Positions 16,564-57,900 are shown, counted from the stretch's first letter. The stretch: 64,000 nt of DNA from Sedimentisphaerales bacterium (GCA_963663965.2 CAXXFK010000006.1:244891-308890); one strand, 5' to 3'. Notes: a model not told the origin generated them from the sequence alone. Program-made: numbers and translations.

Positions 16564-17885
16564 TATAATACTCCCCAAAAACTGGACAAAAAAACGGTGA
16601 TTTTTAGATGGAATTGCCGCCTGAACCGATTGAATAATTCGTATTCAGGAGACAGTTTTAATGAAAGGCAAACGGCGAAATCACAGTGCCCAGTTTAAGG
16701 CGAAAGTGGCCCTGGCCGCCCTGAAGGGCGACAAGACGCTGGCGGAGTTGGCCAAGGTTTACCAGGTACACCCGACTCAGGTTACCCAGTGGAAAAAGGA
16801 GCTTTTGAATGCCTTGCCGGAGATCTTTTCTCTGAGGCGCCACCAGGATCAGCGCGAGCAGCAGGCTTTGGTGGATCAGTTATATCAGCAGATCGGCCAA
16901 CTCACGATGGAGTTGGACTGGCTTAAAAAAAAATCCGGGCTTGACACTTGAGCAGAAGCGCCTGGCGATAGAGCCGGGCCATCCCCGGATTCCGATCGAT
17001 CGTCAGTGTGAACTGCTGGGCCTGGCCCGCAGTAGTTACTATTATCGTCCCTGCCGGGACACGGAGTACCATGAGAGTCTGATGCGGCTATTGGATGAAC
17101 AATACCTCAAAACCCCTTGTTACGGGGTTGACAAGATGACGCAGTGGCTGCGTCGTCAAGGCCACATCGTCAATCCGAAGCGCGTGCGCCGTTTGCTCCG
17201 GCTGATGGGCTTAGAAGCGATTTATCCGCGCGTTAAGCGGCATTTGAGCCAACCGGACCCGGCCCACAAGATTTATCCCTACCTGCTTGATGGGGTGGTG
17301 GTTACCCGGCCGAACCAGGTCTGGTCGACCGATATTACCTATATCCGCATGTCTCAGGGCTGGGTGTACTTAACGGCGGTCATGGATTGGTTCAGCCGTT
17401 ATGTGTTAAGCTGGGAAGTTTCGATCACGCTGGAGGCCGATTTTTGCGTATCGGCGTTGGAGCAGGCGCTGGGCCAGGGCACCCCGGAGATCTTCAATAC
17501 GGATCAGGGCAGCCAATTTACATCAGTGGATTTTATCCGGCCCTTGAAAGATGCCGGGATTTTAATCAGCATGGATGGCCGGGGCCGGGTATTTGACAAC
17601 ATATTTGTCGAACGGTTATGGCGTTCGGTCAAGGTGGAGGAGGTCTATCTGCGAGATTACCAGACGGTGGCCGAGGCGGTGTTAGGCCTGGGCCGCTATT
17701 TTGAGTTTTACAATCATGAACGGCTGCACGAGGCCCTGGGATACCTTACCCCGGCCGAGGTGTTCGCCGGGGCTGTCGCCCCTCCAGTCGCCCTCCGGGC
17801 TCCTTCCGGGGCGACAGCCCCCACCGTGGCGATAACTCCATCTAAGAAAGTCAATATTTTTGTCTAGACAATGGGGAGGGGTACA
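16564..17885 (+). mobile_element. IS3-family insertion sequence, copy 1 (1322 bp)
   Basis: Imperfect IRs TATAATACTCCCCAAAAACTGGACAAAAA / TGTACCCCTCCCCATTGTCTAGACAAAAA. 3-bp target duplication GTA at 16561-63 and 17886-88. OrfA and OrfB with an A9 slippery run. Confidence 0.96.
16661..17867 (+). CDS. IS3 transposase OrfA (16661-16951) and OrfB (16941-17867), programmed -1 frameshift
   Basis: HSAQFKAKVAL HTH; WSTDITYI, NTDQGSQF, DNIFVERLWRSVK (DDE). Confidence 0.95.
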
Positions 17886-19918: not shown

Positions 19919-22900
19919 ATGGAGATAGTTATGCAATCGGACCCAATAACAAATGCAGAGAAGATAAAAGAGAGTATCATCAGGTATGTCAATACGACTT
20001 TTAATGTTAGATACAAATCATTTGTCGAGGAACGAGAGCGTTTACTTAAAAAGGAAGGAACTATTGGTAAGATACCATGGTTTGAATTAATTCCTCAATA
20101 TAAAACCAGTAAAAAAATTGATGATATAACGAATGATGATGTCAAAATGGATCCTCAAGTAATTGATCGATTTAAAGAATTCGTAAAATGTGGATTAATT
20201 GGTGATTATCCATTGTACATGCACCAATTAGAAACACTTCAAAAAGCATCTAAGGGGCAAAATGTTATTATCACTGCCGGAACCGGTTCGGGTAAAACGG
20301 AATCATTTCTTTTACCGATTTTCTCTCAACTTATTGAAGAGTCAATAAATTGGCAATCTCCATCTAGAACGGCATTTCATCAATGGTGGCGGAATGATTC
20401 TGGTGAGCGTATTAACCAGAGACATTATGAACATCGCCCGAGTGCAATAAGAGCATTAATCATATATCCCATGAATGCACTCGTTGAAGATCAGATGGCT
20501 CGATTGAGAAAAGCAGTTTGTTCAAATAAAGCCGAGCAGTGGTTCTCTAAACATTTAAATGGAAACAGATTTTATATTGCTAGATATAACAGTAATACTC
20601 CAGTATCAGGATATCCTAATGAAAAAACAAAACAAAAAGAATTAAAAAGACAACTAAGAGATCTAGAGAAAAATTTGGAGCAAGCAAGAATATATGATCA
20701 TACCTATAACAAAGGAGCACAGTATTATTTTCCACAAATTGACAGAGCTGAAATGTGCAGTCGTTGGGACGTTCAAGAGTGCCCACCGGATATTCTAATT
20801 ACGAATTCAAGCATGCTCAGCGTAATGATGATGCGGGAGATAGAAGACGATATATTTGAAAAAACTAAAAAATGGCTTGAGGAATATGATAATGCTATTT
20901 TTAATCTTGTAATCGATGAATTACATCTTTATCGAGGTACGGCAGGAACAGAAGTATCATATTTAATTAGACTATTATTATATCGTTTGGGTTTAACTCC
21001 GGATAGCCCAAAATTGAGAATTTTGGCTTCAAGCGCATCAATTGAACCAGATAGTGATAGCATCAAATATTTGGATGAATTTTTTGGATCAAAATGGAAT
21101 CCAGAAAATATTGTTTCGGGTAGCTATGAAAATCAACGCGTGCTTTTCGCTAAAAAGTTAGATGTATATCAGTTGGCTGGCCTTAGACAAAATGAAATAC
21201 CAAAAGATGCTACACATTGGGATGCTGACTTTTTCCGACAAGCATTATATAGCGGTTTTCAAGGTAAGACTGCTATCAGTGCGTTAGAATTCAGTCGAAA
21301 TATTTTTGGAGAGCATGATGATCACATGCTTATTAATGGTTTGAAAGCTTTCTTAAGATTGCGAATGAAACTAAGAGATTCCAGGATTCCTTCTATCAGA
21401 GTTCACTATCTCTTCAGAAATATTGAGGGTATTTGGGGGACAGCCAAACCCGCAGGTATCGATAAGTGTACGGTGGGAATGATATCCCTAAGAAAAACAC
21501 CCTATATTAAGCAGAATGGTGAATATTTACGAGCTTTTGAATTATTATATTGTGAATATTGTGGCAGTTTGTTTTTCGGTGGAATGCGTTGCGGTAACGA
21601 TCATGAGTTTGATATGTTACCTGATAATTACGATTTAGAAAAAGCACCTTGGAAACCAATTGAAACTTATACTGGTAGCAAGAGTTATGAAGATTATGCT
21701 GTTTTCTGGCCAATGGAGAATGCTGTTAAAAATTTTTCAGTAAAAGGCAAAAAAGTGGAGGGGGGTTGGAGAAAGGCTTTATTAGATCCATATCTAGGGC
21801 GTGTTATGCCAAGTGATGAGGTTGAAGAACGCGAAAGAAGAGAGAAATTGATTAACGGTTATGTCTATGTGGCTAAAAATTCAGATCTTCATAACAAAGC
21901 AATGCCGCAAACATGTCCATTTTGTGGGATTTATAAAGCAAAAGCCAGGCCAATCAGAGCATTCAATGCTGGTTTTAGTCATATGGCGAAAAATTTAATT
22001 CGTGAGTTATTCTATTTGTTAGAAGAAAGAAAGCTAATTGTATTTTCAGATAGTAGAGAGGCCGCAGCTAGTATAGCAAATGGAGTGGAAAGATGGCATT
22101 ATATAGATTTAATGAGAGAGATACTTATCCAAATTGCTGCCGAATCAGAAAGGAATCGACCAGAAAAGATAAAAGTATTAGAGGACGAATTAATTTATTA
22201 TCAGAATGAGATTAATAAAACACAAGTTCCTGAAAGCCAAAAAAAAGAATATCTCAATAAAATTCCTTTGTGGCAGGAAAAAATCGAAAGACTTAAAAAT
22301 GAGAATGTGATGTGGTTTGATGAGGCGGTATTATCGATCGAGAATTCCGATTTAGTTAAGAAGTTTATGGATATAGGAGCAAATCCTGCCGGCAGCGATA
22401 TACAATATCAAAAATTTAATAATGAAAATCAAAAATGGAATATTATCTTAGATAAAATAATAAAAAAATCATTAAAATCTGAACATGATATGAGTGAATT
22501 CAAATATCGCTATATACCAAAGATTAAAGAAGAAATATCAACAACATTATACGGAAGAACGTTTTGGGGATTTGAGCCTTTTGGGATTGGTTATCTTGTA
22601 CCTCACGAACTAAATAGTATTAATCCATACAACATAGCAGAACAAGATTATCGTGAAATTATTTATAGTTGTATTCGAATTTTAGGTATTAACCATTATT
22701 ATGAGACTATTAGTAATGAGTTGTGGTGCAATTTCAATATCGGAGAAGGAAATGAAATCAATAACTATTTGAAATCAGTGGCTCAAAAATATCTAATAAC
22801 CGATAAAGCGGGATTCGAAGATCACATTAAACGACATTTTGTGATTAGCGGATCACGCTTAGGGCTAAAACTGGAGAGGTATGGTCTGAGACTTATTGAT

Positions 22901-25150
22901 GCTTCTTCGCCAGTATGGGAATGCGCAAAATGTCAAGAGATTCATCTTCATAACTCTGCTGGAATATGCACAAGATGTTTCAATGAATTAGAGGAAACTA
23001 CCCATCTAAAAGCTGAAGATATTCGGGAACAGCATTATTATAGCCGTATAGCATTTGAAAATATACCTATTAGGATCCATTGTGAAGAACTTACGGGACA
23101 AACTGATGATCAAGCCAAGCGGCAAAGATTATTTCTTGGTATTGCAATGGATAATGACGAAGAGATTTTATATGACGAGATTGATGTATTAAGTGTTACA
23201 ACGACGATGGAAGTCGGTATAGATGTGGGTACTTTAGAAGCAGTATTATTAGGCAACATGCCGCCTATGAGATACAATTATCAGCAAAGAGTCGGGCGAG
23301 CTGGTCGGCGTGGGCAAGCTTTTCCTATCTCGATGACATTATGTAGGTCTAAAAGTCATGATGCTTATTATTATGAAAACACGAATCAATTAGTATCAGG
23401 GAAAGTTCCTGCACCATTTATTTCGATTGATAGTGTAGAGATTGCCAAGCGCCTGGTAAATAAAGAAGTATTGAGGCGGGCATTCAAAGCTTGTGGAGTT
23501 ACACATAACCATGGTCCTCAATTCCCACCAGATAGTCATGGTGAATTTGGTTATGCTATTAAAAATGGTCAGAAAGATTCAAAATGCTGGGAAGAGACTA
23601 AGGAAGACATTCGGCTATGGATTGTGAAAAATGAGACAATTATAAAAGAAATAATAAGGTCATTAATTGTTTCTACAAATCTAAAAATACAAGATATTTA
23701 TGTTGATATACTAAAATTGCCAGAAACTATCGATATAATTCTAAAAAACGAATATTTCTCAGCAACTGGTTTGGCAAATAGACTTGCTGAGGCAGCAATT
23801 TTACCAATGTACGGTATGCCATCGAGGATTAGATCGTTATTTCATGGGAGAAAAAATAACGAGATACAAACAATTGATCGTGATATTTCAGTTGCAATAT
23901 CTGAGTTTTCACCAGGTGTAGCCAGAACAAAAGACAAAGAAATTCACATTTGTAATGGATTTCTTTCGCCAGTTGGAATTGTTAACGGAAAGTTAAGGCA
24001 TCTTGATGGCAGCCCAGATCCATTTTGTAAAATAATCAATTATTCATATTGCGATCATTGTGGAAACTTTCTTTTAAATCCCGATCATAGCAACTTGAAA
24101 TGCCAAAAATGTGATTCTATATTGGAGGAATGTATTGCCAAATCCCCTAAAGGATTCACAGTTGGTTTTGATTGGAACAAAAATGGTATTTTATATTTTA
24201 AGAAACCCAAAGATGCGAAACCAGATGATTTGATAATCAATTATCAACCTATTTCTATTGTAGGAGTTGAATCTGATGAAAATAATTCATTTAAATTTAA
24301 TACTGGCCTAAGCCTTTTTCACGGTAAACCAGTCTTTAAAATCAATAACAACAATGGAGCCCTCTTTCGTGGTGATATGCTTGATCATGGTAGAATAAAA
24401 GAATGGGGGCTTAAAGAAGAAACATCAGAAGAAGCTTTCTCAATATTCGATAGTAAAGTAACCGATGTTTTAGGAATTATGCCTCAATTTATTGCTGATG
24501 GTCTTTGCTTTGATTGGACAAAAAGCGCAGGAATAAAATCCGCTTTTTATTCACTCGGTTTCATGATTAGAAAGTTAGCCTCAAAAAAATTGGATATTGA
24601 CGAGCGTGAATATGAAATTAGTAGCTTAAATACAACTATTTCAAGTAATGGAAAACGAACGGCCAGATTATTTATTAGTGACTCACTAGTAAACGGTTCA
24701 GGTTTTTCTGAATGGCTTCACGCCAATTACGAGGGTATATTGAGACAAATTACTTGCGTAGAGAAAAGTTCTTTAAGTATTAGTCATCGTGATTGCTTAA
24801 CTTCATGCTATAATTGCTTGTGCAGTTATGACAATATGCCATATCATGCATTACTAGATTGGAGATTATCTATAAGTTTAGCAAAATGTTTGTATGATAA
24901 TAAATATAAATGTGGACTAGATGGCGAATTTGAACATGAACTTGAAATTTATAGGACTCAAATAAATGACCTTATTGTAAAATTTGTTGATAGCTATTCA
25001 AAATTAGAAGCAAAAATGTATGGTAGGTTATCAGGAATGGCTTTCAGAAGTAAAAAATATGATGCAGATGTTATAGTTACTCATCCATTTTGGGATAAAG
25101 AAAATGGTAATGAATGCGGGATACTTAAAGAAGCAATTGAAAAGTGTAAT
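19919..25150 (+). CDS. Large SF2 DEAD/DEAH helicase with DUF1998 (DruE-like); C-terminus clipped by IS3 copy 2, with read-through to 25354
   Basis: AGTGSGKTESF, IYPMNALVEDQ, DELHLYRG, SSAS, FSDSRE, TTTMEVGIDVG, QRVGRAGRR; DUF1998 motif CLTSCYNCL..YDN..YH.LLDWRL. Native sequence ends at ..IEKCN. Confidence 0.88.
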
Positions 25151-26472
25151 TGTACCCCTCCCCATTGTCTAGACAAAAATATTGACTTTCTTAGATGGAG
25201 TTATCGCCACGGTGGGGGCTGTCGCCCCGGAAGGAGCCCGGAGGGCGACTGGAGGGGCGACAGCCCCGGCGAACACCTCGGCCGGGGTAAGGTATCCCAG
25301 GGCCTCGTGCAGCCGTTCATGATTGTAAAACTCAAAATAGCGGCCCAGGCCTAACACCGCCTCGGCCACCGTCTGGTAATCTCGCAGATAGACCTCCTCC
25401 ACCTTGACCGAACGCCATAACCGTTCGACAAATATGTTGTCAAATACCCGGCCCCGGCCATCCATGCTGATTAAAATCCCGGCATCTTTCAAGGGCCGGA
25501 TAAAATCCACTGATGTAAATTGGCTGCCCTGATCCGTATTGAAGATCTCCGGGGTGCCCTGGCCCAGCGCCTGCTCCAACGCCGATACGCAAAAATCGGC
25601 CTCCAGCGTGATCGAAACTTCCCAGCTTAACACATAACGGCTGAACCAATCCATGACCGCCGTTAAGTACACCCAGCCCTGAGACATGCGGATATAGGTA
25701 ATATCGGTCGACCAGACCTGGTTCGGCCGGGTAACCACCACCCCATCAAGCAGGTAGGGATAAATCTTGTGGGCCGGGTCCGGTTGGCTCAAATGCCGCT
25801 TAACGCGCGGATAAATCGCTTCTAAGCCCATCAGCCGGAGCAAACGGCGCACGCGCTTCGGATTGACGATGTGGCCTTGACGACGCAGCCACTGCGTCAT
25901 CTTGTCAACCCCGTAACAAGGGGTTTTGAGGTATTGTTCATCCAATAGCCGCATCAGACTCTCATGGTACTCCGTGTCCCGGCAGGGACGATAATAGTAA
26001 CTACTGCGGGCCAGGCCCAGCAGTTCACACTGACGATCGATCGGAATCCGGGGATGGCCCGGCTCTATCGCCAGGCGCTTCTGCTCAAGTGTCAAGCCCG
26101 GATTTTTTTTTAAGCCAGTCCAACTCCATCGTGAGTTGGCCGATCTGCTGATATAACTGATCCACCAAAGCCTGCTGCTCGCGCTGATCCTGGTGGCGCC
26201 TCAGAGAAAAGATCTCCGGCAAGGCATTCAAAAGCTCCTTTTTCCACTGGGTAACCTGAGTCGGGTGTACCTGGTAAACCTTGGCCAACTCCGCCAGCGT
26301 CTTGTCGCCCTTCAGGGCGGCCAGGGCCACTTTCGCCTTAAACTGGGCACTGTGATTTCGCCGTTTGCCTTTCATTAAAACTGTCTCCTGAATACGAATT
26401 ATTCAATCGGTTCAGGCGGCAATTCCATCTAAAAATCACCGTTTTTTTGTCCAGTTTTTGGGGAGTATTATA
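25151..26472 (-). mobile_element. IS3-family insertion sequence, copy 2 (inverted, no target duplication)
   Basis: Same IRs, length and encoded proteins as copy 1. Flanks AAT and TTT do not match. Confidence 0.96.
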
Positions 26473-26613
26473 TTTTTCCTTATTGCAAGCCTTATTTCTG
26501 AGCCGATAGCTTTTGCCGGTAATCTGGATGATTTCGGCGTGGTGCAGGAAGCGGTCCAGGATAGCGCTGGCGCTGGGGACATCACCCAGCAGGGTAGTGT
26601 CAAGAATTTTTCG

Positions 26614-28549
26614 GTAGCGCCAGGTAACTGGCAAGGAGTAGCGGATGCAAGAGCCGTACAATGAAGGTTTAGCAAACCACATTGGCCCCGAGTCATGTGG
26701 GCATACCGGTAACGGTATGCTTGAAGCGTTGACAGGGGAAGATGCGGGCTGGGTATTGAGCCGCGTAAGTTTGTACATTATAGAACGGAGTGCCGACGCT
26801 GTCGAAAATGTCGGAAGGCAACACCGGATGTCTTATTATCGCGAGAGACATTCCGGACTCCGCGCGGTCGAAGACCCCAGGCACGCATGGACACTTCTTG
26901 CACAGGAACTGGGAGATCCCTTGTTTGGCCTCAGGACACATTATCCTGTGGTCCGCACAGAAAATCCAATTGGAGTACTGCTGTGATGAACGAACAGGGG
27001 AAGTCGGACAGGCCCATAGTACCTAAGAAGTTCTCGAACAAAGAGGCTGGTTGCCATGCCTTGGCGGAGAGGATAGAGGGAAGGGGCCTGACCAAGGGCA
27101 ATTCGTCTCTACTGCACAAGTGCCGGACACCGGGCCGGGAAAGCTTGCCAAACGCATTAGAACGAATACGACAGGCAGCCACCCGGGATAAACAGCTAAA
27201 GTTTACTTCCCTGTGGCATCATGTCTATCATGTCGACCACCTGAGAGAAGAATTCTATCGCATTAAGCGGCAGGCTTCCCCGGGTGTGGACGACCAGACA
27301 TGGCAAGAGTATGAGGCCGGGTTAGAGAACAATCTCAATAGCCTGGCAGAACGACTGAGAAAGGGGGCATATCGGGCAAAACCGGTAAGGCGGGTATTCA
27401 TCCCCAAACCGGATGGACGCCAGCGTCCCATTGGTATTACTACCATTGAGGATAAAATCGTCCAGCGTAGCACGACTACGGTATTGAACGCTATTTATGA
27501 GGCTGACTTCAAAGGCTTCTCCTATGGCTTTCGTCCCGGTCGCAGTGCTCACAACGCCTTAGATGCTCTCTATGTCGGCATACTCAAGCGTAAGATAAAC
27601 TGGGTACTCGACGCTGACATCAGCGGCTTCTTTGATGCCATCGATCACGATTGGCTGATTAGATTCGTCGAGCACCGAATCGGAGACCCGCGAGTAGTAC
27701 GGCATATCAAGAAATGGTTGAATGCTGGAGTCGTGGAAGAAGACAAACTTCTGCAGATCAAGGAAGGCACCCCGCAAGGTGGGAGCATATCGCCATTGCT
27801 GGCGAATATCTACCTTCATTATGTATTTGATCTGTGGGCTGACCAATGGCGAAAGCGTAACGCCAAAGGGCATATGATTATCGTTCGATATGCTGACGAT
27901 ATCGTTGTCGGATTCCAATATCAATCGGATGCCAATAGATTTCATACGGACCTGCAGAATCGATTTGGCAAGTTCAAGTTGAAGCTTCATCCGGCCAAAA
28001 CCCGGCTCATTCAGTTCGGCCGCTATGCGACAGAACGAAGGACTACTCAAGGTAAAGGCAAGCCTGAGACATTCGACTTTCTTGGCTTTACGCACATCTG
28101 TTCCAAGTCAAGTAAAGGTCGGTTTATGTTGCTCCGGTTGCCGATGAGAAAGCGGGTGCAGGCCAAGCTAAAGGAAATCAAGGAACAGCTCAAATACCGG
28201 CGCTATACCTCGATTCCGGAGATGGGCCAGTGGCTTCACTCTGTTATCAGCGGCTGGTACCGATACTACGCCGTTCCTAATACATCTCGCTATCTTGGCA
28301 CCTTTCGCCGTAGGGTCGCCTGGCTTTGGTTCAGAGCGTTAAGAAGACGCAGTCAACGAAGCCGCATGACCTGGAGGCGAATGTACCAACTGATAGCAAG
28401 ATGGCTTCCGCAGCCTAAAATTCTGCATCCGTACCCCCAGGCACGCTTACAAGCTGCTCGTTATGACCCGAGGTAGGAGCCGTATGCGGTAGTTCCGCTC
28501 GTACGGATCTGTGCGGGGGGCTGGGAGTAATCCCAGTCCCTACCGCGAC
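26614..28549 (+). mobile_element. Group II intron (IIB-like, RT without an En domain)
   Basis: 5' end GTAGCG (variant of GTGYG). Domain V GAGCCGTATGCGGTAGTTCCGCTCGTACGGATC from 28477, domain VI, 3' end ..CCGCGAC. EBS1 CGAAAA at 26803-08 pairs with exon TTTTCG. Removing the intron restores the IS256 IR. Confidence 0.93.
26986..28476 (+). CDS. ltrA: Group II intron reverse transcriptase/maturase
   Basis: RRVFIPKPDGRQRPIGI, SYGFRPGRS, GTPQGGSISPLLANIYLH, RYADD, FDFLGF, X domain; no HNH. The start is uncertain (26887 or 26986). Confidence 0.95.
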   Translation: MNEQGKSDRPIVPKKFSNKEAGCHALAERIEGRGLTKGNSSLLHKCRTPGRESLPNALERIRQAATRDKQLKFTSLWHHVYHVDHLREEFYRIKRQASPGVDDQTWQEYEAGLENNLNSLAERLRKGAYRAKPVRRVFIPKPDGRQRPIGITTIEDKIVQRSTTTVLNAIYEADFKGFSYGFRPGRSAHNALDALYVGILKRKINWVLDADISGFFDAIDHDWLIRFVEHRIGDPRVVRHIKKWLNAGVVEEDKLLQIKEGTPQGGSISPLLANIYLHYVFDLWADQWRKRNAKGHMIIVRYADDIVVGFQYQSDANRFHTDLQNRFGKFKLKLHPAKTRLIQFGRYATERRTTQGKGKPETFDFLGFTHICSKSSKGRFMLLRLPMRKRVQAKLKEIKEQLKYRRYTSIPEMGQWLHSVISGWYRYYAVPNTSRYLGTFRRRVAWLWFRALRRRSQRSRMTWRRMYQLIARWLPQPKILHPYPQARLQAARYDPR

Positions 28550-28653
28550 CACATTTTTTATTAGTCTTTCATCTGGTAGAGTCTTTCAATGGAGGAGGGA
28601 GGGACAACTCCCTGCCCTGCCTCCCCGAGGGGAGGCAAAAATTTATCGGACGA

Positions 28654-29910
28654 TCATGCCATGACCACCTCCTCTTTTTCAGCTTTTTTCTCCTTCTCCA
28701 ACTCATACAAATGATCCATATTCAAATAACGCCTCGTACCCCATTGGGTGCCGGCAATATGTCTCAGGCGGGCCGTGGCCAGCATCAGGGCCGAGTGACC
28801 ATCCGGAAAATTGCCCACCACGCGCGTACGACGACGAATCTCACGCATGATCCGCTCCAGTGGATTATTGGTTCGCAACTGCCGCCAGTGCTTGTCGGGA
28901 TATTGATAGTAAGTGAGTGTTTCGAGATAGCTTTCCTGGACCAATTCAGCGGCCTTGCCCAGTTTCATCTCCCGCAATTTGACAATCACTTGCTCGGCCT
29001 TCTGGATCGCCGCCTGGCGGTCTTCCTGGGCATGGATGGCCTTGAGCATGGCCGCTACCTCTCGCACCTTCTTGCGCGGCACATGACTGAACACGTTGCG
29101 ATACCAGTGGACCGTGCAGCGCTGCCAGTCGGCCTCCGGAAAAACCTCGGCCAGCGCGTCCACCAGACCCAGGCATTTGTCGGAAACAAACAGGCGAACG
29201 CCCTGCAGGCCGCGGCGCTTTAAATCGCGTAAGAAACCGCCCCAACCGGCTTTATCCTCTTTGGCGCCCTCGCAGGAACCCAGCACTTCGCGATAGCCCT
29301 CCTGATCGACGGCAATGGCCACCAGAATCGAAACATTCTTGACTTCGCCGCCCCAGCAACGTTTCAAAACGATGCCGTCCAGATAGACATAGGGATACGA
29401 CCCTTCCAGTTTGCGGTTGCGCCATTGGTCGATCTGTTGATAGACTTTCTGATTCAGATTGCTGATGGTGCCCGCACTGACACGGGCGCCCCACAGGCTT
29501 TCGGCGATGTCTTCGATACGCCGGACCGAAACGCCGGCCAGATACATCTCGATCAGGGCCTCTTCTACCGAAGACTCCCGGCGTTTATAGCGCTCGATGA
29601 TGGCGGTTTCAAAGGTCGTTTTTCGCAGCTTGGGCATCTTCAAATTCACTTCGCCGGTCGTCGTATGAAACTTACGCGGATAATAGCCCGCCCGGGTATC
29701 GGTGCGGGCCTGGGTATGTTCATAACGCTGGGCGTTGCAGAGCTGGTCCGCCTCGGCGTCCAGCAGGGCATTGAGCGTGTCTTCCACACTCTGGCGCACC
29801 ATCTGGCCCAACTGATCCTTCATCTGGGATTGGTCGATTTTTAAAATTTGGTTCAAGTTTCTAACGTCACTGGTCGATTCTTCTGTTTGACTCATAGTCA
29901 GTCCTTTCAT
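28654..29910 (-). CDS. IS256-family (mutator-type) transposase
   Basis: EMYLAGVSVRR, YPYVYLDGI, WQRCTVHWYRN, RTNNPLERIMREIRRRTRVVG.FP. Confidence 0.96.
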   Translation of the reverse strand: MKGLTMSQTEESTSDVRNLNQILKIDQSQMKDQLGQMVRQSVEDTLNALLDAEADQLCNAQRYEHTQARTDTRAGYYPRKFHTTTGEVNLKMPKLRKTTFETAIIERYKRRESSVEEALIEMYLAGVSVRRIEDIAESLWGARVSAGTISNLNQKVYQQIDQWRNRKLEGSYPYVYLDGIVLKRCWGGEVKNVSILVAIAVDQEGYREVLGSCEGAKEDKAGWGGFLRDLKRRGLQGVRLFVSDKCLGLVDALAEVFPEADWQRCTVHWYRNVFSHVPRKKVREVAAMLKAIHAQEDRQAAIQKAEQVIVKLREMKLGKAAELVQESYLETLTYYQYPDKHWRQLRTNNPLERIMREIRRRTRVVGNFPDGHSALMLATARLRHIAGTQWGTRRYLNMDHLYELEKEKKAEKEEVVMA

Positions 29911-30803
29911 TTGGTGGTAGGTTTCGGTTTCAAAAACTTCATCGACCAGATGAAGGACTGTTTTTACGGTGTCCTATAATATGTGCGAAAAATATTTTAC
30001 CTTATCCCCAGCAGTTTGCCCCAGTCTTCCAGGGGACGATTGGAAGTCATCACCGTCGAACGCAGTTCATAGCGCCGCATGATCACCTCAAAGAGATATT
30101 CCCCGGATCGTCTGGGCAACTGCTTCATGCCCATATCGTCAATGATCAGCAGGTCCGGTTTCAGGTATTTGGCCAGCGCTTTTTCCAATCCGCCCAGGGC
30201 CTCATCCTGCAGGAAGTCGCGGACCACATCGAATACCGAGCGGTACTTGACCACAAATCCGGTTTTAATGGCCTGATAGCCCAACGCCTGGGCCAGATGA
30301 CTCTTGCCGGTGCCCGGCGGCCCCAAGAACAGCACATCGCGCCGTTCGCGCAGGAACCGGCAGCTGGCCAGATCGTAAATCTGTTTTTGTTTGACGGAGG
30401 GATTGAACTGCCAGTCGAAATCCTCCAGCGTTTTCAGTTCCCGAAAGGCCGCGGTCTTGACCCGCCGCTGGATCTGCCGATCCTGACGCACCAGCAGTTC
30501 ATCTTGCAGGATCAATTCCAGGAAGTCCTGGTGAGATAACCGGTTGCCGGCCGCTTCCTGCAGCCGGATCTCCAGCGAGTCGGCCAGTCCGGACAGGCGC
30601 AGGCGTTTCAGCGCGGTTTGGATCGCATCATTCATACGAAGGTCTCCTTGTGATTGAGATAAAATAAAAGGTGCTTCACGCCGGGCTTTGCCATCCATAC
30701 AGCAAAGAGGCTGAAAAGAGATAGGGGGTGTGGGGGAAAGTGTCCCCCACGATCAAAACAGTTTTTCTTCCTTAAAATTAAAACCATGATATACTCCAAG
30801 AAC

Positions 30804-32339
30804 TTAACCGTGAGCCGCCGGAACCGACGGCAGGCATTGATCGTATTCACTCAATGGGCGGATAATGGGATGTTCTTCGATAAAATCAAATTGCGGCTGT
30901 TCAATCCCTGTTCCGCGTTTTAACAGGTCACGCAAAGTCCGCAGGCGAAACGCTCCATGTGTCAGGGCAATCCGGCAGGCCTGGTTAATCGCCGGGTGGT
31001 CATACTGCTTGCTCAGGGACAACAGGCCCATGAGCGCCCGAACGGCCGTGATCCCGCGGAACTCCAGCAGAGCCTCGGCCCAGGCCAGGGTTTCCGGCCC
31101 GATGTACCGGACTTTGGTCAGTAACCAGGTGGATCCTTTTTCCACCCCCGAGCGTTTGCGTGCGTCGATGTGGCGATCATTGGTCTGGAACTTCCCGGCC
31201 TCCACCTGGGCATGCGTCGCGATCGATTCCATGCGATGGTTGTAGATCCGTACCACCCGGCCGTCCCAGCGGGCCCAGACCGGATGCCCCAGATACTCCG
31301 GTGGCACGGAATAGTAGGCTTTGGCGACTTCCACATGGCCGTCGCGATGCACCCGGCGTTGAGACTCTTGGAATGAAGGGAAATGACCGGACGGTAAGGG
31401 CAGCAAAGCCGGCTTGTCGGCCTGGTCAAAGATCTGGCGTACCTGTTGACGCATCGTGCCGTGAATCCGGGTATCGGCCACCCGCACTTCCCAATCCTGT
31501 AAAAAACGGTTCTGTTCGGCCAGCGAACTAAAGATCCGGCCCTTCAAGGCGTTGTCCTGCACATATTTGATTCCGCTTTCCACCTTGCCTTTGTGACGGG
31601 GTGTGTAAGGCCTGGCCGGCAGAATGACCGTCCGGTAATGGACACAAAACGATTGCAGTTTGGGATTCAGTTCCGGATCGTACCAGTCGGCCCGGGTGAC
31701 CGCTGCCTTCAAATTGTCGATAACCAGGGTTTGAGGCACACCCCCAAAATGCCAGAAGGCGTTCTCCAGACAGCGTAGAAAACTCTCGGTGGTCTGGTGG
31801 AAGACCGACTCACTGTAGGCTTTACGCGAATGACTTAAAACCATGCGGAAGACATAAGTTCTTTTGCGTTTGCCATTGAGCCAGACCGGCGCGCCGGTGC
31901 CAAAATCGACTTGCGCTTCCTGGCCCGGCGGGCATTCCATCCGCCGATAGGGCAAAGGGCGGGTCTGGCCCAGGCGCCGCACAAACCGCTTGACACTGTC
32001 ATAGCTGCCAGTGAATCCCTGCTCGCTTTGCAGATCCTGAAAGATCCGTTGTCCGGACAACCCCTGACCGAGTTTGTCGCAGATAATCTGACGATAGGGT
32101 TCGCACTGGCTCTGGCGGCCTGCCGACCCGGGGGGCGAAATGGTCGATTTTGGCCCACCGCCGATCTCGGACCCGGGGGGCACAATGGCCGATTTTGACT
32201 GTTCACGCACCAATCGGACATAGCGACTGACCGTCTGGCGATGGATCCCCAGTCGGCGAGCCACCTCGCGCTGGGAAAACCCTTGTTCACAAAGAGTTAT
32301 GATCTTATTCGTCTGTACCATGCTGATCTGATTGGCCAT
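30804..32339 (-). CDS. istA: IS21 transposase
   Basis: N-terminal HTH, EAQVDFG, VIDNLKAAV, PRHKGKVE, YYSVP. Confidence 0.95.
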   Translation of the reverse strand: MANQISMVQTNKIITLCEQGFSQREVARRLGIHRQTVSRYVRLVREQSKSAIVPPGSEIGGGPKSTISPPGSAGRQSQCEPYRQIICDKLGQGLSGQRIFQDLQSEQGFTGSYDSVKRFVRRLGQTRPLPYRRMECPPGQEAQVDFGTGAPVWLNGKRKRTYVFRMVLSHSRKAYSESVFHQTTESFLRCLENAFWHFGGVPQTLVIDNLKAAVTRADWYDPELNPKLQSFCVHYRTVILPARPYTPRHKGKVESGIKYVQDNALKGRIFSSLAEQNRFLQDWEVRVADTRIHGTMRQQVRQIFDQADKPALLPLPSGHFPSFQESQRRVHRDGHVEVAKAYYSVPPEYLGHPVWARWDGRVVRIYNHRMESIATHAQVEAGKFQTNDRHIDARKRSGVEKGSTWLLTKVRYIGPETLAWAEALLEFRGITAVRALMGLLSLSKQYDHPAINQACRIALTHGAFRLRTLRDLLKRGTGIEQPQFDFIEEHPIIRPLSEYDQCLPSVPAAHG

Positions 32340-54900: not shown

Positions 54901-57900
54901 ATTGTCCGTGCGGATTTGTTTAATGAAGAAAAAGAGGGGGATGAGGAAGGTAACAATGCCATTGCTTGGGGGCCACTTGCATTAAATGTGCATGAATTAC
55001 AGGCCGATATGGCGCCATCGGCAAATAGTTTGACAGATGATCGTGATGATTATTTTATGGTCGAAGCTCAAGCTGATAGTAATTTACTGATTCTGCTGGA
55101 CCACATAACCGAAGGGTCATCTGCAGATCTCTACGCCAGTTATGAATCCATACCTTCCCCGCAGCAGTATGATTATGCTTCCAAAGATAATATTGGCACT
55201 CAAGTGGGAATTCCCGCCGCGCAATCGGGCCATTATTATGTCCTGGTCCATTCCGTTAGCGCTCAATCACCCGATTATTATGAAATATCCGCATGGCAGC
55301 CTGATATAGTCGTTACCAATATATACCCAACCCATCATAGTGTCAGTAGTCCATGTGTCATGACCATTAACGGTGGGGGATTTGATGAGACCGTCCAAAT
55401 TCAATTTAATGATCCAGAGAACAATGTTCAGCAGCCTGACAGGATTGAAGTTTTGTCATCTGATTCTCTGCTGGCCTACTTGGAGACACCCCTGTGGTCC
55501 CAGAAAAGTTATGATTTGATAGTATCCAAAGCAGTTGCAACAAAATCATCCGGTGATGGTACTATTTATTCTGATAAACCGGTGGCTTATGAATATGTAC
55601 AGAAAGATATTTTTGAAGTCACAGATGGAGTACCTTATCTGGAAACACATGTTGTTATGCCGGCTCAAATGGGTTATCACTGGCCACAAACGGTTTATAT
55701 TGAATATGAAAATACCGGTCAGGCATCCATGCCCTCGCCTTTGTTGAAATTAGATATGACGGATAAGGCCCTGTTAACTCTCGATAAGACCGTTCAGGAA
55801 TCCTGGTGGACAATGGGCAACTGGTGGTATGGAGGGCCGCCTAAGGGGGTTTCGGATTCAGTTCAGTTTTTAACAAAAGGCTCTGGATCAACCCCCTATA
55901 TATTACAACCGGGAGACAAAGGAAGAGTCCCCGTCTATTTTATGGGATGTCAGCAACCGTGGAATTTTTCTGACAGGGTGATCGAAGCTCATCTGAAGGT
56001 ATGCTCAGAATCCAATACTGATTCAGTAGACTGGTCCCAACATAAAGAGGCGATGAGGCCGCAATGGTGGATCGGCAGTGATGCCTGGGATGCTGTCTGG
56101 CAAAATTATATGACCCTGGCAGGTGATACTTGGGGAGAGTATATTCGAATTGTCAATCAAATGAGATTTCCACAAGCTTTAGCTCATATTGCCAGTGGAC
56201 TTCGAATATGGTATACCGGGGAACCGGGACAGGCCACTAACATCGCGGCAGATGTAATTGATGTGACCACTCCGCTGGCCTTGGCATTTCGACAGGCAGA
56301 TGGATTAAATCCTATCTACAACCTGGCTCGGGCAACCGATATGACTGTCCCTGCTCCAGGAATATCTTTATCTTTTTCGCGTATCTATCAGCAACCAATC
56401 AGCCGCCGTTACCAGGTTGGTTCGTTAGGCCGTGGCTGGCGACACAACTGGCAAATGCATTTGGCAACGAATAATGAGGGCGATATTGCTATTTATGATA
56501 TAACTGGAACACCAAGAATCTTTGATAAAGAAGGCAGTATTTTCAAGGCATCCAAAGGTGATCATGGTATTTTGACATATAGCAACGGTATCTATTATGT
56601 CACGGAATTGAATGGAACAATTACAACTTATCTAAGTAATGGCCTGTTCAGCACTATCGAGGACACCAATGGAAACAGGGTCACGGCGACATATAATGGA
56701 ACTGATTTGGCCCGATTGACGCACACAAATGGGCGGCAGATAATATTTACCAACAATGGTGGTCGTATTACCTCTATAACCGATACCCGTGATACTGATC
56801 CTGATGATGATTATACCGTACAATTTATCTATGATACTTCTGGGCAATATTTAATCACTGTTATTGAACCTGGCGGCCAAATAACCAATTATTCGTATGA
56901 GATGAGTGGGACTATCCAGCAGCGGCATGCCCTAACCGGAATTGAGTATCCAGATTTGACTCACCAATATTTTAGTTATTCCGAAAATGGCTGGCTCACA
57001 AGTGTCTCTAAAGATAATCACGCTGAGCCTTTATTATTTACTTATGATAATAAAGGCAGTGTCGCAGTAACAGATGCTCAGGGCCGAAAAACCAACTATA
57101 CCTTTGATTGGACGGGGCAGATTTCTCAAGTCAGGGATGGCAACGGTAATAAATTGAATCTGATCTATGATAACGAGGGGAAAATAGTTGGAGTAGTAGG
57201 GCCAGAGGGCCAGCAATTTGCCTATGCTTATGATAGTAAAGATAATATTACCAGTATGGAAGATGGCTTGAAGAAGACCATAAAAGTAGCTTATGAGGGC
57301 AACCATAATCAACTGAGCAGAATTATAGATCCTAGAAACAATGATATGAAATATCAATATGATAGTCGTGGTAATCTGACTAAAATAATCTACGCGGATA
57401 ATTCATCAGAAGATTATACCTATGACTCCAATGGTAATGTATTATCCTGGACTAATCGTCGCGGCCAGACGGTCTCCTATACTTATAATTCCTCGGGGCA
57501 GGTTACCAGTAAAGACTACGATACAACTCCCGAGCTGGACTTTATCTACACCTATGATACAGCGGGAAATCTGACTTCGGCATCCGACTCTCATGGCATG
57601 ACAATCATGTCCTATGATCCGGTGACCAACTGGCTCATCCGCATTGAATATCCAGGCGGAAAGTCGCTTGACTTCCAGTATGATTCGGTAGGCCGCCGCA
57701 CTCGAAGGACGGACCAGGATGGATATTATGTTGATTATCGATACACACCTCTGGGCAAACTGGAACAGATAAGTGATCCCGATGGGATTACGATTGTCGA
57801 TTATGACTATGATGCAACCGGACAGCTAGTCAAGAAAACCCTTGGCAATAACACCTATACGACTTACAGTTATGATTCGGCTGGAAATCTGATCAGTTTG

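What the first reader, a model, noticed from the sequence alone, without database searches (positions are those of the whole stretch)
26593..30006. Group II intron that targets the terminal inverted repeat of an IS256 element
Seen: the intron (26614-28549) splits the IS256 IR after nucleotide 21. Rejoined, it reads GGTAGTGTCAAGAATTTTTCG|CACAT, matching the opposite IR GATAAGGTAAAATATTTTTCGCACAT. The loop of the CCGAC...GTCGG stem carries CGAAAA (26803-08), the exact complement of the exon end TTTTCG. The same TTTTCG|C site is unoccupied in the other IR (~29985-91, minus strand). Established: introns often home into IS coding regions (RmInt1 in ISRm2011-2). Inference: this intron uses the conserved transposase-binding core of the IR as a multicopy target. 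Splicing cannot repair a DNA-level site, so the intron probably immobilises the IS, or rides with it if 21 bp of IR is enough.
Basis: partly seen in the sequence, partly recalled or inferred. Interest (0 to 1): 0.8.

Follow-up and report, generated by a model that had tools for sequence, protein, structure and literature searches.

The report
Intron homing into IS256 end repeats
A self-splicing mobile intron in this bacterium copies itself into one conserved spot in the end-repeats of an IS256-type jumping gene, a real and neat case of one mobile element living on another, though the strategy was published for a different intron in 2014.

Summary
Window 26614-28549 is an intact 1936-nt group II intron. 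It splits the right terminal repeat of an IS256-family element (26593-30006) between bp 21 and 22. An empty copy elsewhere in the genome shows the uninterrupted site.

All 5 genome copies of the intron sit at this position: 3 in one repeat and 2 in the other. All read inward, and all lie on the G-rich, gene-rich (leading) strand.

EBS1 (26803-26808) and EBS3 (26870) are placed by covariation over 45 related introns.

Related introns in at least 8 other genomes of the same order occupy the same kind of site. So do 14 of 14 metagenome contigs found with an exon-free probe.

Intron copies are identical while their host IS copies differ. The intron therefore spread by retrohoming, not by riding the IS.

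The strategy is not new. RmInt2 homes into both repeats of ISRm17, and its authors gave the same lagging-strand argument (PMC4615759). This scan has also noted other introns at IS256 and IS66 tips on other DNA.

This intron lacks the class D motif, so it is an independent lineage. Whether the split end still transposes is untested.

The parts
26585..26592 (.). Left copy of the 8-bp target-site duplication CCCAGCAG of the IS256-family element
   Evidence: The same 8-mer is found at 30007-30014.
26593..26613 (+). Outer 21 bp of the right terminal repeat (R-TIR, 'IR-A'). This is the intron's 5' exon. It holds IBS1 (TTTTCG, 26608-13) and, on the other strand, an outward-facing TTGACA at bp 6-11.
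   Evidence: It is contiguous with 28550 onward in the empty copy on C13. The hexamer position is the same as in ISCth4 (PMC7780238 passages).
26614..28549 (+). Group II intron, 1936 nt, IIB-like. It starts GTAGCG and ends CTACCGCGAC.
   Evidence: Rfam RF02005 at 182.7 bits and RF00029 at 38 bits. Exact boundaries come from the empty site. There are 5 copies at 99.9-100% identity.
26766..26786 (+). Loop that holds EBS2 in this intron class. The best candidate is UGUACA at 26772-77. It pairs only in part with either repeat (TGT in the R-TIR, GTA in the L-TIR).
   Evidence: Exon -9..-13 covary with intron nt 157-161 at 50-68% Watson-Crick. The alignment was inspected. This assignment is tentative.
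26803..26808 (+). EBS1, CGAAAA. It pairs with the last 6 nt of the 5' exon.
   Evidence: Exon -1..-5 pair with intron nt 190-194 at 93/93/89/80/80% Watson-Crick, MI 1.1-1.6, over 45 introns. Compensatory variants are seen in L002 and in G069.
26870..26870 (+). EBS3, a G. It pairs with the first nt of the 3' exon (C at 28550).
   Evidence: Exon +1 pairs with intron nt 257 at 93% Watson-Crick, MI 1.43.
26986..28476 (+). Intron-encoded reverse transcriptase/maturase, 496 aa from the MNEQGK start. The open frame begins at 26887. YADD is present and there is no endonuclease domain.
   Evidence: TIGR04416 scores 376 bits against a cut-off of 300. Pfam finds RVT_1 only. YADD and the C-terminus were checked.
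28475..28549 (+). Domains V and VI of the intron
   Evidence: RF00029 alignment, E 2.6e-5, ending at the 3' splice site.
28550..28560 (+). Inner part (bp 22-32) of the split R-TIR. This is the start of the 3' exon (CACAT...).
28654..29910 (-). IS256-family transposase gene, 418 aa, intact
   Evidence: NF033543 scores 366.6 bits against a cut-off of 150. Pfam Transposase_mut scores 376 bits.
29975..30006 (-). Left terminal repeat (L-TIR, 'IR-B'), unoccupied. The empty target TTTTCG|C lies at 29985-91. An inward TAAAAT sits at bp 8-13.
   Evidence: This same repeat is occupied in the copies on C2 and C21.
30007..30014 (.). Right copy of the 8-bp target-site duplication CCCAGCAG
30007..30698 (-). 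N-terminal part of an IS21 istB gene that the IS256 element interrupts. Its C-terminal part continues at 26471-26592.
   Evidence: Pfam IstB_IS21 scores 206.7 bits. The reading frame continues across the duplication.

Best explanation
This is a lineage of endonuclease-less, IIB-like group II introns whose natural homing site is the conserved subterminal core (bp 15-26) of the terminal repeats of one IS256 subfamily.

How the site is recognised. The intron RNA base-pairs EBS1 (CGAAAA) with bp 16-21 and EBS3 (G) with bp 22. EBS2 and/or the protein contribute further, weaker contacts to bp 1-14.

How it inserts. The protein has no endonuclease. The intron therefore reverse-splices into the strand that is the template for lagging-strand synthesis at a replication fork, as shown experimentally for RmInt1 and RmInt2. 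The target is an inverted repeat, so every IS offers one site on that strand whichever way it lies.

How it spread. The intron spread within the genome by repeated retrohoming into IS copies that were already there, not by transposing with them.

What is inferred and not shown. The insertion puts 1.9 kb between the tip plus half of the transposase-binding site and the rest of the repeat. This probably cripples that end of the IS.
For: Site.
- 5 of 5 intron copies in G000 lie 21 nt inside an IS repeat and read inward: 3 in the R-TIR (C6, C25, C28) and 2 in the L-TIR (C2, C21).
- The sixth IS, on C13, is empty.
- 4 of the 5 occupied ISs and the empty one have intact 8-bp duplications.

RNA recognition. 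EBS1 and EBS3 were mapped by covariation over 45 introns. Compensatory cases:
- L002 pairs exon ATGCG with loop CGCAU.
- G069 pairs exon GUUUCG with loop CGAAAC.
- More distant relatives pair CACACG with CGUGUG and CCUACG with CGUAGG.

Lineage.
- Introns with 76-88% identical 5' ends sit on IR-like 21-mers in G132, G069, G162, G034, G029, G095, G325 and G303.
- An IS256 transposase was found beside them in G069 (2 copies) and G162.
- 14 of 14 metagenome contigs hit by an exon-free 26-nt probe carry such a 5' exon: 6 of R-TIR type and 8 of L-TIR type.
- The 5 IR-homing proteins form one group with SH-aLRT 100 in a quick tree of 42.

Strand.
- All 5 introns are sense on the G-rich strand. Local skew is +0.07 to +0.2, or -0.14 where the intron is on the minus strand.
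- That strand also carries 66-84% of long ORFs.
- Sites on that strand are occupied 5 of 6 times; sites on the other strand 0 of 6 times (Fisher two-sided p = 0.015).

Homing rather than riding.
- G000 intron copies differ at 0-2 of 1936 positions, while their IS copies differ at 3-10 of 1478. The three R-TIR-occupied ISs carry three different outer-repeat haplotypes.
- In G069 the 3 introns differ at 0 of 1936 positions, while the 2 IS bodies differ at 8 of 1413.

No endonuclease. Pfam finds RVT_1 only.

The subterminal site at bp 15-26 is the N-terminal-domain binding site in ISCth4 (PMC7780238 passages).
Against: - The strand test has n = 5 related events. It rests on GC skew and ORF orientation as proxies for replication direction. 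Anchoring by dnaA was ambiguous, because there are two dnaA genes and only one sits in a consistent skew context.
- One favourable site is empty: the R-TIR of the C13 copy.
- The G132 fragment lies in a negative-skew flank, and one G069 copy sits at a skew switch.
- One of 12 short metagenome flanks is clearly negative.
- EBS2 pairs poorly with both repeats, so what gives specificity beyond the 7-nt core is not explained.
- A perfect 12-nt core outside any IS (C15:280392) is empty.
- The copy on C28 has no target duplication.
- One G069 copy (L127) has a 5' exon that is not recognisably an IS tip.
- For most metagenome contigs, 'IS tip' rests only on likeness of the 21-mer. A transposase match was found only in L139/L143.
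- No splicing, mobility or transposition was measured.
Confidence: 0.85

Rival explanations
1. The intron is a passenger. The IS with the intron in one repeat still transposes as a 3.4-kb unit, and the several copies arose mainly that way.
For: Every composite examined except the one on C28 has its own 8-bp duplication. This is what transposition of the composite would also leave behind. For ISCth4, a junction whose L-TIR is cut to 14 bp still integrates in vitro, and the recipient end makes few contacts (PMC7780238 passages). A 21-bp outer stub might therefore suffice.
Against: Intron copies are identical while their IS hosts have diverged. In G000 the introns differ at 0 of 1936 positions against 3-6 of 1478 among the three R-TIR copies. 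In G069 the figures are 0 of 1936 against 8 of 1413. The three R-TIR-occupied ISs have three different outer-repeat haplotypes, and these also occur in unoccupied repeats. Both repeats are used, which needs at least two separate insertions.
Confidence: 0.1
2. The placement is a coincidence or an ectopic one-off. The intron's real homing site is elsewhere and it fell into an IS by chance.
For: The 7-nt IBS1+IBS3 core is short and common, with 1608 occurrences in the genome.
Against: 5 of 5 copies lie at the same base step in two repeats. The same holds in other genomes and in 14 of 14 metagenome contigs. EBS1 changes together with the repeat sequence.
Confidence: 0.01
3. Cause and effect are reversed. 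The IS256 element inserts next to the intron, so that the intron only appears to lie in its repeat.
For: None was found.
Against: The outer 21 bp of the repeat lie upstream of the intron, and the target duplication flanks the whole composite. An intron-free IS carries the uninterrupted repeat.
Confidence: 0.01

Closest known systems
[quoted passage not shown] 2014, PMC4615759; passages and section 6 read; also PMC5894124 passages)
   Same: It is an endonuclease-less IIB intron. All its copies lie in IS inverted repeats and both repeats are used. It has an experimentally shown bias for the lagging-strand template. It tolerates EBS2/IBS2 mismatches, and its copies are identical. The authors already state that IR targeting doubles the number of targets and ensures that one is on the lagging strand.
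   Different: RmInt2 is class D, whereas the class D C-terminal motif LX3AX3PXLF[V/A]HW is absent here. The IS host is different: here it is an IS256-family element, cut inside the subterminal transposase-binding core at bp 21|22. I did not establish the family of ISRm17 or where RmInt2 sits within its repeat. The present lineage is spread over several families of one bacterial order and in metagenomes; RmInt2 was reported in one strain.
RmInt1 in ISRm2011-2 (PMC1802570 and PMC4238363: search listings and abstracts only; described in PMC4615759 and PMC5894124 passages)
   Same: It is an endonuclease-less intron that uses a multicopy IS as its homing site and is primed at replication forks. Its insertion is said to block the spread of the IS.
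   Different: It therefore offers only one target orientation per IS.
ISCth4 / IS256 (copy-out/paste-in IS256 family; Kosek et al. 2020, PMC7780238, passages read)
   Same: The transposase family is the same (NF033543). The repeats are about 31 bp with a variable first 14 bp and a conserved bp 15-26. The duplications are 8 bp. A -35-like hexamer lies at bp 6-11 of the R-TIR and a -10-like hexamer at bp 8-13 of the L-TIR; here these are TTGACA and TAAAAT.
   Different: The subterminal core here reads TTTTTCGCACAT rather than the TGTAAA motif. No intron is reported in ISCth4.
Other intron/IS-tip pairs noted earlier in this scan on other DNA (e1-6652524 and e1-6652662: IS256 tips, 7 nt from the end; e1-7195194: IS66 tips)
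   Same: These are group II introns that base-pair with transposon end repeats.
   Different: They have different insertion positions (7 nt or 1 nt from the tip, against 21 nt here). They share no detectable words with this protein: my look-up by sequence did not return them. I did not test those notes.

Membership tests
Mobile group II intron | Domain I-IV ribozyme structure | tested here: met
   RF02005 scores 182.7 bits against a gathering score of 49, covering the full model 1-225.
Mobile group II intron | Domain V/VI at the 3' end | tested here: met
   RF00029 scores 38.0 bits, E 2.6e-5. This is 2 bits under its gathering score of 40. The match ends exactly at the 3' boundary that the empty site fixes independently.
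Mobile group II intron | Intron-encoded reverse transcriptase/maturase | tested here: met
   TIGR04416 scores 376 bits against a cut-off of 300. YADD is present.
Mobile group II intron | EBS1-IBS1 and EBS3-IBS3 pairing with the flanking exons | tested here: met
   Covariation over 45 introns: exon -1..-5 with intron nt 190-194, and exon +1 with nt 257.
Mobile group II intron | Splicing and retrohoming activity | not testable with these tools
   The only evidence is indirect: 5 near-identical copies and an empty site.
Bacterial class D introns (RmInt1/RmInt2) | IEP without an endonuclease domain | tested here: met
   Pfam finds RVT_1 only. The protein ends about 50 aa after the maturase motif.
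Bacterial class D introns (RmInt1/RmInt2) | C-terminal class D motif LX3AX3PXLF[V/A]HW (as given in PMC4615759 section 6) | tested here: not met
   A regular-expression search of the IEP finds no match, even to the relaxed L...A...P. The C-terminus reads ...LPQPKILHPYPQARL....
Bacterial class D introns (RmInt1/RmInt2) | Placement with reference class D proteins in a tree | not tested
   No named reference sequences were at hand. The class of this intron is left unassigned.
IS256 family insertion sequence | IS256/Mutator-type DDE transposase | tested here: met
   NF033543 scores 366.6 bits against a cut-off of 150. PF00872 scores 376 bits.
IS256 family insertion sequence | Imperfect terminal inverted repeats and 8-bp target duplications | tested here: met
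   24 of 32 positions match, including a perfect bp 15-26. Duplications are present at 5 of 6 copies.
IS256 family insertion sequence | Circle intermediate with a junction promoter | not testable with these tools
   TTGACA at R-TIR bp 6-11 and TAAAAT at L-TIR bp 8-13 are placed as in ISCth4. No circle was observed.
IR-homing intron strategy (as in RmInt2) | All copies lie in IS repeats and both repeats are used | tested here: met
   5 of 5 copies: 3 in the R-TIR and 2 in the L-TIR.
IR-homing intron strategy (as in RmInt2) | Insertion biased to the lagging-strand template | tested here: met
   5 of 5 by GC skew and by ORF-strand proxy. There is no direct replication data.

The most novel reading that the evidence does not exclude
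The intron lineage and this IS256 subfamily form a long-standing parasite-on-parasite pair. The intron's guide sequences track the transposase-binding core of the repeat, because that core is the one part of the IS that cannot drift.

The insertion spares bp 1-21, which hold the tip and both junction-promoter hexamers. An intron-bearing IS could therefore remain a weak but usable transposition substrate, as truncated recipient ends are for ISCth4 in vitro. The intron would then both throttle the IS within a genome and occasionally be carried by it to new replicons and hosts.
Probability: 0.2. Interest if true: 0.6.

Novelty: new member of a known kind. Interest (0 to 1): 0.4.

Why it matters
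The finding gives a second, independent intron lineage that has settled on transposon end-repeats as its homing site. It lacks the class D motif. It supports the published idea that an inverted target guarantees one site on the lagging-strand template, using natural data from several genomes.

The cut falls inside the subterminal transposase-binding site of a structurally characterised IS family. This makes it a convenient natural system for two questions:

- how much of an IS256 end is needed for transposition;
- whether introns act as brakes on IS expansion.

For genome annotation, a 21-bp IS256 tip followed by GA[AT]GCGCCAG marks a split IS end, not an IS boundary.

Tried and rejected
- **Literature on prior art.** Three full-text searches found no paper on an intron in IS256 repeats: 'group II intron' + IS256 + 'inverted repeat' (17 papers); with 'terminal inverted repeat' and retrohoming (77 papers at 3 of 4 terms); with 'inverted repeat of' (2 papers). 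The RmInt2 paper was among the rows listed. I recognised its relevance only through this scan's earlier notes and then read it.
- **RNA evidence.** No RNA holder is listed for the stretch. I did not lay reads.
- **Anchoring the replication direction with dnaA.** There are two dnaA genes. One lies 30 kb from a minus-to-plus skew switch and the other in a flat or negative region. This was not decisive, so I used an ORF-strand proxy instead.
- **Assigning the intron to a named class.** A protein search of plasmids gave only generic 'ltrA' annotations at 55% identity or less. No reference set was at hand.
- **EBS2.** The covariation signal is weak (50-68%) and its register is uncertain. I do not rely on it.
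- **Promoter scan.** A weak + strand site at 26447-26474 upstream of the intron matches 9 of 12 consensus positions. I do not treat this as evidence of transcription.
- **Careful tree.** It did not finish in time, so only the quick tree is reported.
- **Not used.** Structure prediction, complex prediction and protein-database searches were not needed.
Full report
**What is there.**

The window carries a pile of nested mobile elements.
- An IS21 element has istA at 30804-32339 and istB at 30007-30698, both on the minus strand (Pfam).
- Its istB is interrupted by an IS256-family element at 26593-30006, and the rest of istB resumes at 26592 going down.
- The IS256 element has an intact transposase at 28654-29910 on the minus strand. 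NF033543 scores 366.6 bits against a cut-off of 150, and Pfam Transposase_mut scores 376 bits.
- It is flanked by the 8-bp duplication CCCAGCAG.
- Inside its right-hand repeat lies a group II intron on the plus strand.

The intron is supported as follows.
- Rfam RF02005 scores 182.7 bits at 26650-26877.
- RF00029 (domains V/VI) scores 38.0 bits at 28475-28549, just under its gathering score of 40.
- The open frame is a group II reverse transcriptase/maturase. TIGR04416 scores 376 bits against a cut-off of 300 and YADD is present.
- No endonuclease domain is present; Pfam finds RVT_1 only.

**Exact boundaries.**

The whole genome (42 contigs, 7.24 Mb) holds 5 copies of the intron at 99.9-100% identity and 6 copies of the IS. 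The IS on contig C13 is empty and reads GGTAGTGTCAAGAATTTTTCG|CACATTTTTT without a break.
- The intron is therefore exactly 26614-28549, which is 1936 nt.

The two repeats of the IS match at 8/14 positions in bp 1-14, at 12/12 in bp 15-26 (TTTTTCGCACAT) and at 4/6 in bp 27-32. The intron cuts the perfect core.

**All copies are in the repeats, and both repeats are used.**

- Three copies (C6, which is the window; C25; C28) are in the repeat downstream of the transposase gene (R-TIR).
- Two copies (C2, C21) are in the repeat upstream of it (L-TIR).
- Each is 21 nt from the tip and reads inward.
- No IS has both ends occupied.
- Target duplications are intact for C6, C25, C2, C21 and the empty C13 copy, but not for C28.
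- The 7-nt IBS1+IBS3 core TTTTCGC occurs 1608 times in the genome, so the placement is not chance.
- One perfect 12-nt core outside any IS, at C15:280392, is empty. Recognition therefore reaches beyond the core.

**RNA-DNA recognition.**

I collected 45 non-identical related introns: 40 from a protein-based scan of reference genomes and 5 of the close lineage. I set their 5' ends with the help of the GCG anchor and aligned domain I.
- Exon positions -1 to -5 pair with intron nt 190-194 in 93, 93, 89, 80 and 80% of sequences, with mutual information 1.1-1.6. In each case this is the top-scoring column.
- These nucleotides correspond to window 26803-26807, so CGAAAA at 26803-08 is EBS1.
- Exon +1 pairs with intron nt 257 in 93% of sequences (MI 1.43). 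This places EBS3 at the G of 26870, opposite the C of 28550.
- A caveat applies to EBS1: the 5' boundary of the distant introns was chosen with the help of EBS1 pairing, so the EBS1 figures are partly circular. The EBS3 result is not, because the 3' boundary came from the domain VI alignment.
- Independent support for EBS1 comes from close relatives whose boundaries are fixed by sequence identity. L002 has exon ...ATGCG and loop CGCAU, which is two compensatory changes. The G069 intron has loop CGAAAC and sits on ...GTTTCG.
- EBS2 maps to the loop at 26766-86 with a weaker signal (50-68%). The candidate UGUACA (26772-77) pairs with only 3 contiguous bases of either repeat, although it would pair fully with the TGTACA-bearing repeat of L139.

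**A lineage, not a single case.**

A search of 401 genomes of the same order with intron nt 1-300 gave matches in 27 at E <= 1e-10. Many of these are more distant introns with other targets.

Those with the GA[AT]GCGCCAG start and 76-88% identity sit on 21-mers of two types:
- GGTAGTGTCAAG...TTTCG (R-TIR type);
- GATAACGTATAAT...TTTCG (L-TIR type).

They occur in G132, G069, G162, G034 (3 loci), G029, G095, G325 and G303.

Longer stretches were fetched for eight loci, with these results.
- An IS256 transposase at 67-70% identity follows the intron in 3 of the 8 loci: G069 twice, and G162. The target duplications in G069 are ATTTTAAT and TTTACTCC.
- It does not follow in the other 5. These are fragments, contig ends or the odd copy L127.

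An exon-free 26-nt probe from intron nt 4-29 hit 14 metagenome contigs.
- All 14 have such a 5' exon: 6 of R-TIR type and 8 of L-TIR type.
- L139 and L143 are the same sequence.
- A transposase match was seen only in those two.

In a quick maximum-likelihood tree of 42 intron proteins, the 5 IR-homing ones form one group (SH-aLRT 100) among relatives with other targets. The careful search did not finish.

**Strand.**

The genome has strong GC skew, with contig means near +/-0.1. All 5 introns are sense on the G-rich strand.

| Contig | Skew | Intron strand |
|---|---|---|
| C6 | +0.07 | plus |
| C25 | local +0.19 to +0.23, just past a minus-to-plus switch | plus |
| C28 | +0.10 | plus |
| C2 | +0.12 | plus |
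| C21 | -0.14 | minus |

- The same strand carries 66-84% of long-ORF residues around each copy.
- Taking the G-rich, gene-rich strand as the leading strand (established general rule), the intron lies in the template for lagging-strand synthesis.
- Which repeat is occupied follows from the orientation of the IS. Sites on that strand are occupied 5 of 6 times and sites on the other strand 0 of 6 times (Fisher two-sided p = 0.015). The events are related, so this is only indicative.

Elsewhere the picture is mostly consistent but not clean.
- G162 is positive (+0.14).
- In G069 one copy is clearly positive, one is weakly positive and one sits at a skew switch.
- The G132 fragment is negative.
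- Short metagenome flanks are positive in 10 of 12 (L139 and L143 are the same sequence), near zero in 1 and negative in 1.

**Homing or hitch-hiking.**

In G000 the three R-TIR copies have introns with 0 differences in 1936 nt, while their IS sequences differ at 3-6 of 1478 positions. Their outer 21-mers carry three different haplotypes, and these also occur in unoccupied repeats.

In the complete genome G069, three introns differ at 0 of 1936 positions, while the two IS bodies differ at 8 of 1413.

If IS and intron had travelled together they should have diverged together. The intron therefore entered IS copies that had already diverged. The assemblies keep IS variants apart, so the identity of the introns is unlikely to be an assembly artefact.

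**Consequence for the IS (inferred).**

For ISCth4, a crystallised IS256-family member, the passages I read say the following.
- The repeats are bipartite. A terminal site is bound by the catalytic domain, and a subterminal site is bound by the N-terminal DNA-binding domain.
- Promoter hexamers lie at bp 6-11 (R-TIR, -35) and bp 8-13 (L-TIR, -10).

The same layout is seen here: TTGACA on the outward strand at bp 6-11 of the R-TIR and TAAAAT at bp 8-13 of the L-TIR. The intron thus cuts through the subterminal binding site and leaves the tip and both hexamers on the outer stub. That should weaken or abolish use of that end.

The same paper reports that a junction with one repeat cut to 14 bp still integrates in vitro. 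A residual ability of the composite to move is therefore not excluded. In L-TIR copies the intron lies in the sense direction between the -10 hexamer and the transposase gene, so transposase expression from that side would need splicing.

**Comparison with what is known.**

The strategy is published. RmInt2 of S. meliloti GR4 has all seven copies in the left and right repeats of ISRm17 and homes with a lagging-strand bias. Its authors state that IR targeting doubles the number of sites and ensures that one is on the lagging strand (PMC4615759, passages and section 6; PMC5894124 passages).

I was led to that paper by earlier notes of this scan, which also record introns at IS256 tips (7 nt from the end) and at IS66 tips on other DNA.

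RmInt2 is class D. The class D C-terminal motif quoted in that paper is absent from this protein. This is therefore a separate lineage that has reached the same solution on a different IS family and at a different place in the repeat. I could not assign the intron to a named class.

**Verdict.**

It is a well-documented new member of a known kind. Interest is moderate.

Noticed in passing
window 25152-26470 and 16566-17884: A 1319-bp IS3-family element (orfA/orfB at 25169-26375, minus strand) has 7 copies at 99.8-100% identity in the genome. One copy lies inside the IS256 copy on C21, and one abuts the split istB in this window.
   Followed up: partly
window 26471-26592 and 30007-32339: An IS21 element (istA, istB) is interrupted in istB by the IS256 element and is cut at its other side by the IS3 element. 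This is three layers of nesting, with the intron as the innermost.
   Followed up: partly
G000:C2:53420-53527 and 56144-56189: This is an older, 78-84% identical fragment of a related intron. It also follows an L-TIR-like 21-mer (…GGTAAAATATTTTTCG) and is itself interrupted by about 2.6 kb. It lies 3 kb upstream of the active copy on C2.
   Followed up: partly
G000:C28:182289-185702: This is the only IS copy without a target duplication (CAGCAAAA on one side, CGAATATC on the other). That suggests a rearrangement between IS copies.
   Followed up: no
G000:C15:280392 (minus strand): A perfect 12-nt core TTTTTCGCACAT lies outside any IS and is unoccupied. The core alone does not seem to suffice as a target.
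   Followed up: no
G000:C6:105041 (minus) and C40:67804 (plus): Two sites read GGTAAACTTTCGCACATTTTGTAA. They look like ends of another IS256-like element that shares the core. Both are unoccupied.
   Followed up: no
L127 (G069:C1:2301952 onward): An identical intron copy has a 3' exon made of 180 bp of the IS, but its 5' exon (…GATTTTTGTAATGAACGTTTTG) is not a recognisable tip of that IS. This may be recombination between intron copies or an ectopic site. EBS1 can still pair, with one G-U.
   Followed up: partly
L025, L071, L078 (named genome contigs records): More distant relatives of the intron occur as head-to-tail tandem pairs, where the 3' exon of one is the 5' end of the next. RmInt2 was reported to do this in assays (PMC4615759 passage).
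   Followed up: no
L106, L107, L110-L114, L117, L121: A sister group of introns in another family of the same order sits after a recurring ...GGGGAC(A/G)NC(A/T)TG motif. This suggests another repeated target.
   Followed up: no
G000:C22:55553-56824 and C17:22520-23809: The assembly holds two full-length dnaA genes. The stated contamination is 5.4%. This could mean a second replicon or a mixed bin.
   Followed up: no
window 19919-25354: An 1811-aa open frame with helicase-like motifs runs into the IS3 element at its 3' end. Its last residues may be IS-derived.
   Followed up: no
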